Sequence record: OP555982.1
Direction: 5' to 3' (one strand)
Length of the DNA stretch: 64,000 nt
Source of the DNA: Escherichia phage vB_EcoM-UFV11
The notes under the pieces were generated by a model. The model saw only the letters and a program-made list of their open reading frames with translations, did no database searches and was not told the origin of the DNA. Of the stretch, positions 39,100 through 39,555 are shown in pieces; within the stretch, counting starts at the first letter, position 1; each line of letters begins with the position of its first letter. The position numbers and the translations under genes were made by a program.

Positions 39100-39555
39100 T
39101 TATTTTAAATCATCTGCCCAATCGAATTTAAGAGGCTCTTTGTATTCACGATCTAATACGACCGGAATTTGTACATCACCGCTAAATGATAAGGGCCCAA
39201 CATTATAAGACAATGTTATATGCGGTGTGTAATCATCAAAATCATGTGTAGCACCTAGTGCCCGCGCATACATGTGTCGACAGCGCAAATATTCAGAATC
39301 TAGTACAAGTACAAGAGTAGATCCATCTTGTGTTTTCCATACTTCTAAATGTCCAGAAGAAGCTACTTCAAAACTTCCGCTTGATGGAACATATGGAACA
39401 TTTACTCTCGAATAACATATAGTCGAATGAATTTTTTCTCTAGGAACTGGATTAGGAACACGTAAAGAGCGCTGAAGTTCTTCCAGCGCATCAAGTGTTA
39501 ATTCTGAAAACTTAGCTGCTACATAAAGACCCGTTGAAAAGTCTTTAAATTCCAT
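39100..39555 (-). CDS. 57B: gp57B, 2H-phosphoesterase-fold protein (Acb1-type cyclic-nucleotide phosphodiesterase in T4)
   Basis: 151 aa; two H-x-T/S motifs (HSTICY and HITLSY); position upstream of 57A. Confidence 0.75.

What the first reader, a model, noticed from the sequence alone, without database searches (positions are those of the whole stretch)
39100..39555. 57B carries the 2H-phosphoesterase signature (Acb1-type anti-CBASS nuclease)
Seen: two H-x-T/S motifs (HSTICY, HITLSY) in the 151-aa 57B protein. Established knowledge: T4 gp57B is Acb1, which degrades cyclic-oligonucleotide immune signals. Its presence is notable given the NTase operon 17 kb away, since a phage carrying both a signal-degrading enzyme and a possible signal synthase would need the two to be compatible. 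The 88-aa helical ORF at 28900-29166 sits where T4 vs.4 (Acb2) is expected, but I cannot confirm identity.
Basis: partly seen in the sequence, partly recalled or inferred. Interest (0 to 1): 0.35.

Follow-up and report, generated by a model that had tools for sequence, protein, structure and literature searches.

The report
Known T4 anti-CBASS genes Acb1, Acb2
This T4-like coliphage carries near-identical copies of two already characterised T4 genes that destroy (Acb1) or soak up (Acb2) bacterial cyclic-nucleotide alarm signals, and the nearby "NTase operon" is the ordinary T4 nrdC.10/nrdC.11 pair, so the finding is correct but ordinary.

Summary
The ORF at 39100-39555 (-) encodes a 151-aa protein with HSTICY (residues 43-48) and HITLSY (112-117). 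It is the orthologue of T4 gp57B/Acb1. It matches Pfam Acb1 at E=1e-59 and the Erwinia phage FBB1 Acb1 crystal structure at E=1e-61 (67% identity). It differs from T4 57B by one substitution (L145F, at the start of the C-terminal lid) and by loss of the first of two Met codons. The HxT/HxT catalytic tetrad and all published base-contacting residues are kept.

The 88-aa ORF at 28900-29166 (-) is T4 Vs.4/Acb2 (PDB 7UQ2, E=4e-53). It has five substitutions, none at published cGAMP-binding or hexamer-interface residues.

The "NTase operon" is nrdC.11 (96% identical to T4) plus nrdC.10 (99%). NrdC.11 belongs to the RlaP family (PF10127), whose characterised members add 1-2 NMPs to RNA 3' ends. It matches no CD-NTase, SMODS or PADLOC model. 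T4 itself, where Acb1 was discovered, has the same gene set.

Acb1 homologues occur in 1,484 and Acb2 homologues in 1,242 of 50,697 phage records. The window is phage vB_EcoM-UFV09, identical except for one 99-bp tandem duplication elsewhere. Verdict: already known, low interest.

The parts
39100..39555 (-). acb1 (T4 gene 57B orthologue), 151 aa, 2H-phosphoesterase anti-CBASS nuclease
   Evidence: ORF. Pfam Acb1 E=1.1e-59. PDB 7T26 E=1.3e-61. 99% identical to T4 57B. PHROG 755.
39412..39429 (-). First catalytic motif HSTICY (H43, T45; equal to T4 H44, T46)
   Evidence: Regex and position mapping. Invariant in the alignment with T4 and FBB1 Acb1. Residue roles from PMC9117128.
39205..39222 (-). 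Second catalytic motif HITLSY (H112, T114; equal to T4 H113, T115)
   Evidence: Residue roles from PMC9117128.
39103..39126 (-). C-terminal lid (T4 residues 145-152). Its first residue carries the only substitution relative to T4, L145F (codon TTC at 39124-39126). W147 is kept.
   Evidence: Sequence, comparison, lid definition from PMC9117128.
39555..39797 (-). 57A (tail-fibre chaperone, PHROG 1002). Its TAA stop overlaps the acb1 ATG by one base (TAATG), suggesting translational coupling. In T4 the junction is ATGATG, with one more Met codon.
   Evidence: Coupling is an inference.
40153..40160 (-). TATAAATA, a T4 late-promoter-like box inside gene 1, upstream of 57A-acb1. It is a possible late transcription start. 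The count of such boxes in the window is not above chance.
   Evidence: 12 matches against 10.65 expected. Assignment is an inference.
28900..29166 (-). acb2 (T4 vs.4 orthologue), 88 aa, cyclic-nucleotide sponge
   Evidence: PDB 7UQ2 Vs.4 E=4.4e-53. Pfam Acb2_Tad1_hairpin E=9.4e-20. There are 5 substitutions relative to T4, none at Y8, H11, T12, K23, L29, F33, L60, A66, A73, S74, A77, R79 or F82 (residue roles from PMC10097602). Synteny regB-vs.3-vs.4-vs.5-vs.6 is as in T4.
20785..21798 (-). nrdC.11, an RlaP-family Pol-beta nucleotidyltransferase. It is not part of the Acb system.
   Evidence: 96% identical to T4 NrdC.11. Pfam RlaP 44.1 bits against a cut-off of 23. PHROG 388. All 120 listed homologues carry PF10127. 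No PADLOC hit.
19701..20669 (-). nrdC.10, a P-loop/AAA-like ATPase. The likely true start is Met57 of the 378-aa ORF 19701-20837. It is not part of the Acb system.
   Evidence: 99% identical to T4 NrdC.10 from residue 57. PHROG 1250 match starts at residue 57. Weak AAA Pfam hits, all below the curated cut-offs.

Best explanation
The ORF at 39100-39555 (-) is the functional orthologue of T4 Acb1 (gp57B). Acb1 is a small, metal-independent 2H phosphoesterase. [quoted passage not shown] It holds them in a U-shaped pocket by aromatic stacking (Y11, W73, F106 and W146 in window numbering) and reads adenine N6 through E140. It closes the C-terminal lid and uses the H43/T45/H112/T114 tetrad for acid-base catalysis. 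The ribose 2'-OH attacks the 3'-5' bond, and the reaction passes through a 2',3'-cyclic phosphate intermediate to a linear 3'-phosphate product. The CBASS effector is therefore never activated. The 88-aa ORF at 28900-29166 (-) is Acb2/Vs.4. It forms a hexamer that binds three cGAMP molecules and acts as a second, non-enzymatic layer of the same counter-defence. Shown here: gene identity, intact reading frames, conservation of every published catalytic, ligand-contact and oligomerisation residue, and T4-like synteny. Inferred from published work on the T4 and FBB1 proteins: the activity itself and its substrate range. The nearby NTase is NrdC.11, an RlaP-family enzyme that most likely extends RNA 3' ends. 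It is unrelated to cyclic-nucleotide signalling.
For: ORF and motifs. Pfam Acb1 PF23474 E=1.1e-59 over the full model (1-144 of 144). Solved Acb1 structure 7T26 E=1.3e-61, 67% identity. T4 57B differs by L145F and one fewer N-terminal Met. Seven nucleotide differences in 456 nt give only one amino-acid change, consistent with purifying selection. T4 residues Y12, H44, T46, W74, F107, H113, T115, E141 and W147 are all identical; roles from Hobbs et al. 2022, PMC9117128. Gene order 3-1-57A-57B-ipI is as in T4. Acb2. Prevalence (1,484 and 1,242 of 50,697 phage records). NTase identity.
Against: No biochemical data exist for this exact allele. L145F lies at the first lid residue, and its effect is unknown. 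The first ATG of T4 57B is lost (ATGATG to ATAATG), so the protein is one residue shorter. No strong Shine-Dalgarno sequence is evident, and expression probably depends on coupling to 57A (inference). Some databases label the family 'RNA ligase' (PHROG 755, RefSeq), so an additional RNA-directed activity is not excluded.
Confidence: 0.95

Rival explanations
1. The protein is primarily an RNA-processing 2H enzyme, either a LigT-like 2'-5' RNA ligase or a 2',3'-cyclic phosphodiesterase, as the 'RNA ligase' label implies. Cyclic-oligonucleotide cleavage would then be secondary.
For: It has the same 2H fold. PHROG 755 and RefSeq annotate relatives as 'RNA ligase'. There is a weak sub-threshold Pfam hit to 2_5_RNA_ligase2 (E=0.073, 13.5 bits against a cut-off of 27).
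Against: The near-identical T4 protein was identified by activity-guided fractionation as the enzyme that cleaves 3'3'-cGAMP. T4 delta-acb1 becomes sensitive to CBASS (PMC9117128). The Acb1 profile scores 200.8 bits, whereas the ligase family scores 13.5 bits. The 'RNA ligase' label predates the functional work.
Confidence: 0.03
2. The phage makes its own nucleotide signal with the NTase operon at about 19.7-22.3 kb, and Acb1/Acb2 must be compatible with, or regulate, that signal.
For: A Pol-beta-type NTase motif is visible in the sequence (G11-S12, ten residues, then D23-V24-D25). It is flanked by an ATPase gene and a 153-aa predicted membrane-protein gene. T4 NrdC.11 itself has not been characterised biochemically.
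Against: The NTase falls in RlaP PF10127. Pfam shows no CD-NTase or SMODS family even at E<=10, and PADLOC gives no hit at E<=10. Characterised RlaP enzymes add 1-2 NMP to RNA 3'-OH, and that paper places T4 NrdC.11 in the family. The membrane-protein gene is not a conserved partner, because T4 has the homing endonuclease gene mobD at that position. The gene set is shared with T4, so nothing is specific to this phage.
Confidence: 0.02
3. The gene is an inactive or decaying copy.
For: Loss of the first Met codon and one lid substitution.
Against: The full-length frame is intact and all functional residues are conserved. Six of seven nucleotide differences from T4 are synonymous. The identical allele is found in several independently deposited phage genomes.
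Confidence: 0.01

Closest known systems
Phage T4 Acb1 (gp57B, NP_049750.1; Hobbs et al. 2022, PMC9117128)
   Same: Orthologue at 99% identity. Same position between 57A and ipI. Identical HxT/HxT tetrad, aromatic stacking residues, E141 equivalent and lid tryptophan.
   Different: One residue shorter at the N-terminus because ATGATG became ATAATG. L145F at the first lid residue.
Erwinia phage FBB1 Acb1, crystal structures 7T26/7T27
   Same: 67% identity over residues 8-148, the same fold family and the same catalytic motifs.
   Different: FBB1 has F and Y where T4 and the window have W74 and F107. It is a more distant homologue from a different host range.
Phage T4 Vs.4 / Acb2 (PDB 7UQ2; Jenson et al. 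2023, PMC10097602)
   Same: The 88-aa protein at 28900-29166 has 83 of 88 residues identical. All published cGAMP-binding residues (Y8, H11, K23, R79, F82) and hexamer-interface residues (L29, A66, A73, A77) are kept. Synteny is the same.
   Different: E13D, L44F, N46S, C50D and F52L. Four of the five cluster at residues 44-52, outside the listed functional positions.
RlaP family NTases (PF10127; PfRlaP/PaRlaP, PMC12776372) and T4 NrdC.11
   Same: The window's 337-aa NTase is 96% identical to T4 NrdC.11. It matches RlaP above the gathering score and has the G-S...D-x-D Pol-beta motif.
   Different: It is not adjacent to an RNA ligase here. It is paired with the NrdC.10 ATPase. The activity of the phage branch (cluster 5 in that paper) is untested.
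LigT / 2H phosphoesterase superfamily
   Same: Two H-x-T/S motifs and metal-independent phosphoester chemistry.
   Different: The match to the 2_5_RNA_ligase2 family is only sub-threshold (13.5 bits against a cut-off of 27). Acb1 is a separate, dedicated family.

Membership tests
Acb1 (PF23474), 2H-phosphoesterase anti-CBASS nuclease | Significant full-length match to the family profile, above the curated threshold | tested here: met
   200.8 bits against a cut-off of 27, E=1.1e-59, profile positions 1-144 of 144. PDB Acb1 7T26 E=1.3e-61.
Acb1 (PF23474), 2H-phosphoesterase anti-CBASS nuclease | HxT/HxT catalytic tetrad aligned with T4 H44, T46, H113, T115 | tested here: met
   H43, T45, H112 and T114 are invariant in alignment A1 and map one-to-one to the T4 residues. 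Roles from PMC9117128.
Acb1 (PF23474), 2H-phosphoesterase anti-CBASS nuclease | Base-stacking aromatics (Y12, W74, F107, W147) and the adenine-reading E141 | tested here: met
   All identical to T4.
Acb1 (PF23474), 2H-phosphoesterase anti-CBASS nuclease | C-terminal lid (residues 145-152) | tested here: met
   Present at full length. Its first residue is F instead of L. The functional effect of that change is unknown.
Acb1 (PF23474), 2H-phosphoesterase anti-CBASS nuclease | [quoted passage not shown] | not testable with these tools
   Demonstrated for the 99%-identical T4 protein (PMC9117128). Inferred here.
Acb2 / Vs.4 cyclic-nucleotide sponge | Sequence match to the family and to the solved Vs.4 structure | tested here: met
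   7UQ2 E=4.4e-53 over residues 1-88. PF24729 at 71 bits against a cut-off of 27.
Acb2 / Vs.4 cyclic-nucleotide sponge | cGAMP-contact residues Y8, H11, K23, R79, F82 and hexamer-interface residues L29, A66, A73, A77 | tested here: met
   All identical to T4. Roles from PMC10097602.
Acb2 / Vs.4 cyclic-nucleotide sponge | Hexamer formation and nanomolar cGAMP binding | not testable with these tools
   Shown for T4 Vs.4 (Kd about 30 nM). Inferred here.
CD-NTase (cGAS/DncV-like signal synthase), considered for the ORF at 20785-21798 | Match to a CD-NTase, SMODS or CBASS-cyclase profile | tested here: not met
   Pfam at E<=10 lists RlaP (the only hit above its cut-off), a marginal NTP_transf_2 hit and three sub-threshold DUF hits, with no CD-NTase or SMODS family among them. 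PADLOC gave no hit at E<=10. NCBIfam gave none.
CD-NTase (cGAS/DncV-like signal synthase), considered for the ORF at 20785-21798 | cGAS-like fold | tested here: inconclusive
   The AlphaFold2 model from a shallow alignment was poor (mean pLDDT 55.6; residues 1-103 below 50), so no fold search was run. PDB sequence and profile searches gave nothing significant.
CD-NTase (cGAS/DncV-like signal synthase), considered for the ORF at 20785-21798 | Conserved operon partner that is a signal-activated effector (Cap) | tested here: not met
   The neighbours are the NrdC.10 ATPase and a 153-aa membrane protein, and neither has a PADLOC hit. T4 has the homing endonuclease gene mobD where the window has the membrane-protein gene.
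RlaP (PF10127), RNA 3'-end NMP transferase, for the ORF at 20785-21798 | Profile match above the gathering score, and the Pol-beta G-S-x(9-13)-D-x-[DE] motif | tested here: met
   44.1 bits against a cut-off of 23. G11-S12, ten residues, then D23-V24-D25 read directly in the translation. G11, S12, D23, D25 and D85 are invariant in alignment A2. T4 NrdC.11 is listed as an RlaP in PMC12776372.
RlaP (PF10127), RNA 3'-end NMP transferase, for the ORF at 20785-21798 | Adjacency to an RNA ligase or RNA-repair operon | tested here: not met
   None of the flanking ORFs scanned had an RNA-ligase domain. The phage branch seems to be organised differently.

The most novel reading that the evidence does not exclude
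T4 NrdC.11 has never been assayed. My evidence therefore does not strictly exclude that the NrdC.11 (RlaP-type NTase) and NrdC.10 (ATPase) pair makes or modifies a small nucleotide or RNA-end product that intersects with Acb1. One version is that Acb1's 2H chemistry also opens 2',3'-cyclic phosphate RNA ends for NrdC.11-mediated repair, which would link anti-CBASS and RNA-repair counter-defence. A smaller variant is that the L145F lid substitution shifts Acb1 substrate range in the UFV-type phages.
Probability: 0.03. Interest if true: 0.5.

Novelty: already known. Interest (0 to 1): 0.08.

Why it matters
The practical value is annotation. In the matching GenBank records, 57B and vs.4 are labelled 'hypothetical protein' or, misleadingly, 'RNA ligase', and nrdC.10 and nrdC.11 are labelled 'thioredoxin'. 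They can be renamed Acb1, Acb2, NrdC.10 and NrdC.11/RlaP-family NTase. For phage-therapy candidates such as the UFV phages, carrying both Acb1 and Acb2 predicts resistance to many CBASS systems. It also predicts sensitivity to Panoptes-type systems, which sense Acb2 (PMC12657218). No open question is advanced.

Tried and rejected
1. Motif statistics alone. Two H-x-[TS] motifs occur in 16% of shuffled versions of the protein, so the motif observation is not evidence by itself. Homology carries the argument.

2. AlphaFold2 of NrdC.11, intended to test for a cGAS-like fold. Only close homologues (78-97% identity) could be supplied, and the model was poor (pLDDT 55.6, NTase core below 50). No Foldseek search was run because it would be meaningless.

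3. PDB searches with NrdC.11. The single-sequence search gave 0 hits at E<=1. The profile search gave only spurious hits at E>=0.025.

4. NCBIfam gave no model for Acb1, Acb2, NrdC.10 or NrdC.11. PADLOC gave none for any of the seven proteins scanned; NrdC.10 and NrdC.11 were re-scanned at E<=10 and again gave none.

5. Promoter and terminator scan of 38600-41400. Sigma-70-like sites are at chance level (11 found, 9.6 expected). TATAAATA boxes in the window are also at chance level (12 found, 10.65 expected). The promoter assignment for acb1 is therefore only a suggestion.

6. I considered whether the 153-aa membrane protein upstream of the NTase could be a CBASS-like effector. I rejected this because it has no PADLOC hit and T4 has the mobD gene at that position instead.

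Full report
**What the window is.** The region 38000-41000 is 100% identical to Escherichia phages vB_EcoM-UFV09, UFV05, UFV06 and UFV10 (Tequatrovirus) and about 96% identical to T4. A local blastn of the whole window against UFV09 (MZ291552.2) shows that the window corresponds to positions 32002-95902 of that genome. There are no mismatches and a single length difference, a 99-bp tandem duplication at 23601-23798. Everything below therefore concerns a published T4-like coliphage.

**The observation.** The ORF listing finds a 151-aa ATG-started ORF at exactly 39100..39555 on the minus strand. It contains HSTICY at residues 43-48 and HITLSY at residues 112-117, and these are the only two H-x-[TS] occurrences. 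The motif pair by itself is weak: 16% of composition-preserving shuffles have at least two such tripeptides. The ORF is nonetheless unambiguous by homology.
- Pfam Acb1 (PF23474): E=1.1e-59, 200.8 bits against a gathering score of 27, covering the whole model.
- Solved Acb1 of Erwinia phage FBB1 (7T26/7T27): E=1.3e-61, 67% identity.
- T4 57B: 99% identity.

**Comparison with T4 Acb1.** Hobbs et al. 2022 (PMC9117128) identified T4 gene 57B as Acb1 by activity-guided fractionation. [quoted passage not shown] They defined the HxT/HxT tetrad (H44, T46, H113, T115), the stacking residues Y12, W74, F107 and W147, the adenine-specific E141, and a C-terminal lid at residues 145-152. Each of these residues is identical in the window protein, whose numbering is one lower.

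The differences from T4 are two. The first of two tandem Met codons is lost (ATGATG in T4, ATAATG here). This also changes the 57A stop from TGA to TAA and leaves a one-base TAATG overlap with 57A. The second difference is a single substitution, L145F, at the first lid residue. Seven nucleotide differences in 456 nt give only this one amino-acid change, consistent with purifying selection. Gene order (3, 1, 57A, 57B, ipI) is the same as in T4.

In the spread-sampled tblastn list only the top row is 100% identical, and the next eight sampled rows are 99.3%, the value expected for a single difference such as the T4-type L (T4 itself is 99% identical). The F allele therefore appears to be the minority form; I did not count it exactly.

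**The 88-aa ORF.** The ORF at 28900-29166 (-) is the ATG-started inner part of a longer TTG ORF. It matches the T4 Vs.4 crystal structure 7UQ2 at E=4.4e-53 over its full length and Pfam Acb2_Tad1_hairpin at E=9.4e-20. It differs from T4 Vs.4 at five positions: E13D, L44F, N46S, C50D and F52L. Jenson et al. 2023 (PMC10097602) report residues that contact cGAMP (Y8, H11, K23, R79, F82, S74), cap a helix (T12) or form the hexamer interface (L29, F33, A66, A73, A77). All of these are unchanged. The neighbours (regB, vs.3, vs.5, the glycyl-radical vs.6) are arranged as in T4.

**The 'NTase operon 17 kb away'.** The only candidate at that distance is the 337-aa ORF at 20785-21798 (-), with a 378-aa ORF downstream (19701-20837) and a 153-aa predicted membrane protein upstream (21795-22256). 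The first two are T4 NrdC.11 (96% identity) and NrdC.10 (99% identity from Met57, the likely true start).

NrdC.11 matches Pfam RlaP (PF10127) at 44.1 bits against a cut-off of 23. All 120 listed database homologues carry the same domain. Its Pol-beta motif, G11-S12 followed by ten residues and then D23-V24-D25, is visible directly in the translation. With Pfam relaxed to E<=10, the only additions are a marginal generic NTP_transf_2 hit and three sub-threshold DUF hits. There is no SMODS, CD-NTase or Mab-21 family. PADLOC, which contains the CBASS cyclase models, gives nothing at E<=10, and NCBIfam gives nothing.

A 2025 preprint (PMC12776372) characterised two bacterial RlaP enzymes. They add one or two NMPs to the 3'-OH of RNAs, preferably damaged ones. 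The paper explicitly places T4 NrdC.11 in the family. The membrane-protein gene is not a conserved partner, because T4 has the homing endonuclease gene mobD at that position.

The most likely role of NrdC.11 is thus RNA 3'-end repair or modification, not signal synthesis. This is inferred from family membership, since the T4 protein itself has not been assayed. The same gene set coexists in T4, where Acb1 was discovered, so the co-occurrence gives no reason to single out this phage.

**How common these genes are.** tblastn finds Acb1 homologues in 1,484 of 50,697 phage records, 454 of them at >=99% identity. It finds Acb2 homologues in 1,242 records. Most hits are in Escherichia, Klebsiella and Shigella phages, with Vibrio, Acinetobacter and Aeromonas phages also represented for Acb1. 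These are standard accessory genes of T4-like phages.

**Mechanism.**
- Shown here: intact genes with all functional residues conserved.
- Taken from published work on the 99%-identical T4 protein and the FBB1 structure: Acb1 binds cyclic di- or trinucleotides that contain adenosine and distorts the ligand so that the adenosine 2'-OH attacks the adjacent 3'-5' phosphodiester. His/Thr acid-base catalysis needs no metal. The reaction passes through a 2',3'-cyclic phosphate intermediate and releases a linear 3'-phosphate product, which removes the signal that would activate the CBASS effector.
- Acb2 hexamers sequester cGAMP at about 30 nM Kd. The two proteins act as redundant layers of counter-defence.
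- Known liability: Acb2, but not Acb1 at native levels, triggers Panoptes defence (PMC12657218).
- Inference only: expression of acb1 is probably coupled to 57A through the TAATG overlap. Transcription may start at a TATAAATA box inside gene 1 (40153-40160). Neither promoter scan exceeded chance expectation.

**What failed or was inconclusive.** An AlphaFold2 model of NrdC.11 from the shallow alignment that could be supplied was poor (pLDDT 55.6), so no fold comparison was run. PDB sequence and profile searches for NrdC.11 returned nothing significant.

**Verdict.** The sequence observation is confirmed, and the identification of Acb1 and Acb2 is correct. The suggested tension with a local 'signal synthase' is not supported. 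The feature is already known, and interest is low. The only allele-specific detail is the L145F substitution in the lid, whose consequence is unknown.

Noticed in passing
window 23601-23798: A perfect 99-bp tandem duplication (2.0 copies, 100% identity). It is the only difference between the 64-kb window and the published UFV09 genome. The 15 best of 499 matching phage records, the only rows listed, span 551-552 bp for this 651-bp query, i.e. a single copy. It extends the DUF7438/PHROG 2758 ORF (23512-23784, minus strand) to 90 aa with a repeated 33-aa N-terminal segment. It could be a recent natural duplication, a difference between assembly versions, or an artefact.
   Followed up: partly
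window 36164-37178: A cluster of 11 tRNA genes (Arg, His, Asn, Tyr, Met, Thr, Ser, Pro, Gly, Leu, Gln). The part of the T4 cluster fetched here shows Met, Thr, Ser, Pro, Gly, Leu and Gln in the same order. I recall that T4 has 8 tRNA genes in total, which I did not verify.
   Followed up: no
window 37265-37789 (-): A 174-aa ORF (PHROG 2290, unknown function, no Pfam hit) lies between tRNA-Gln and the ipI-proximal genes. T4 has only about 100 bp of intergenic DNA at this position. This is a variable locus next to the internal-protein and anti-defence genes.
   Followed up: partly
window 38743-39027 (-): IpI (Pfam IPI_T4 nuclease inhibitor, E=1.3e-51) lies immediately downstream of acb1. Two anti-defence genes are therefore adjacent. 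An early-promoter-like TTTACA-17-TACTAT site occurs at 39058-39086 and again at 38695-38723.
   Followed up: no
window 22259-23344 (-) and 21795-22256 (-): Two tandem paralogues of the T4 y05I-like putative transcription factor (Pfam T4_y05I_N plus T4_y05I_C), together with a 153-aa membrane protein (PHROG 944), occupy the place where T4 has the homing endonuclease gene mobD and mobD.1.
   Followed up: partly
window 26732-27211 (-): A macro-domain protein (Pfam Macro, E=6e-8; PHROG 335 'phosphatase'), the T4 Tk.4 homologue. It is a possible ADP-ribose-processing enzyme of unknown role.
   Followed up: no
L004 (MZ291552.2), features at locus 14155-22300: In the UFV09 GenBank record the whole nrdC.1-nrdC.11 block, including the RlaP NTase and the NrdC.10 ATPase, is annotated 'thioredoxin'. 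This looks like name propagation from nrdC. Acb1 and Acb2 are annotated 'hypothetical protein'.
   Followed up: yes
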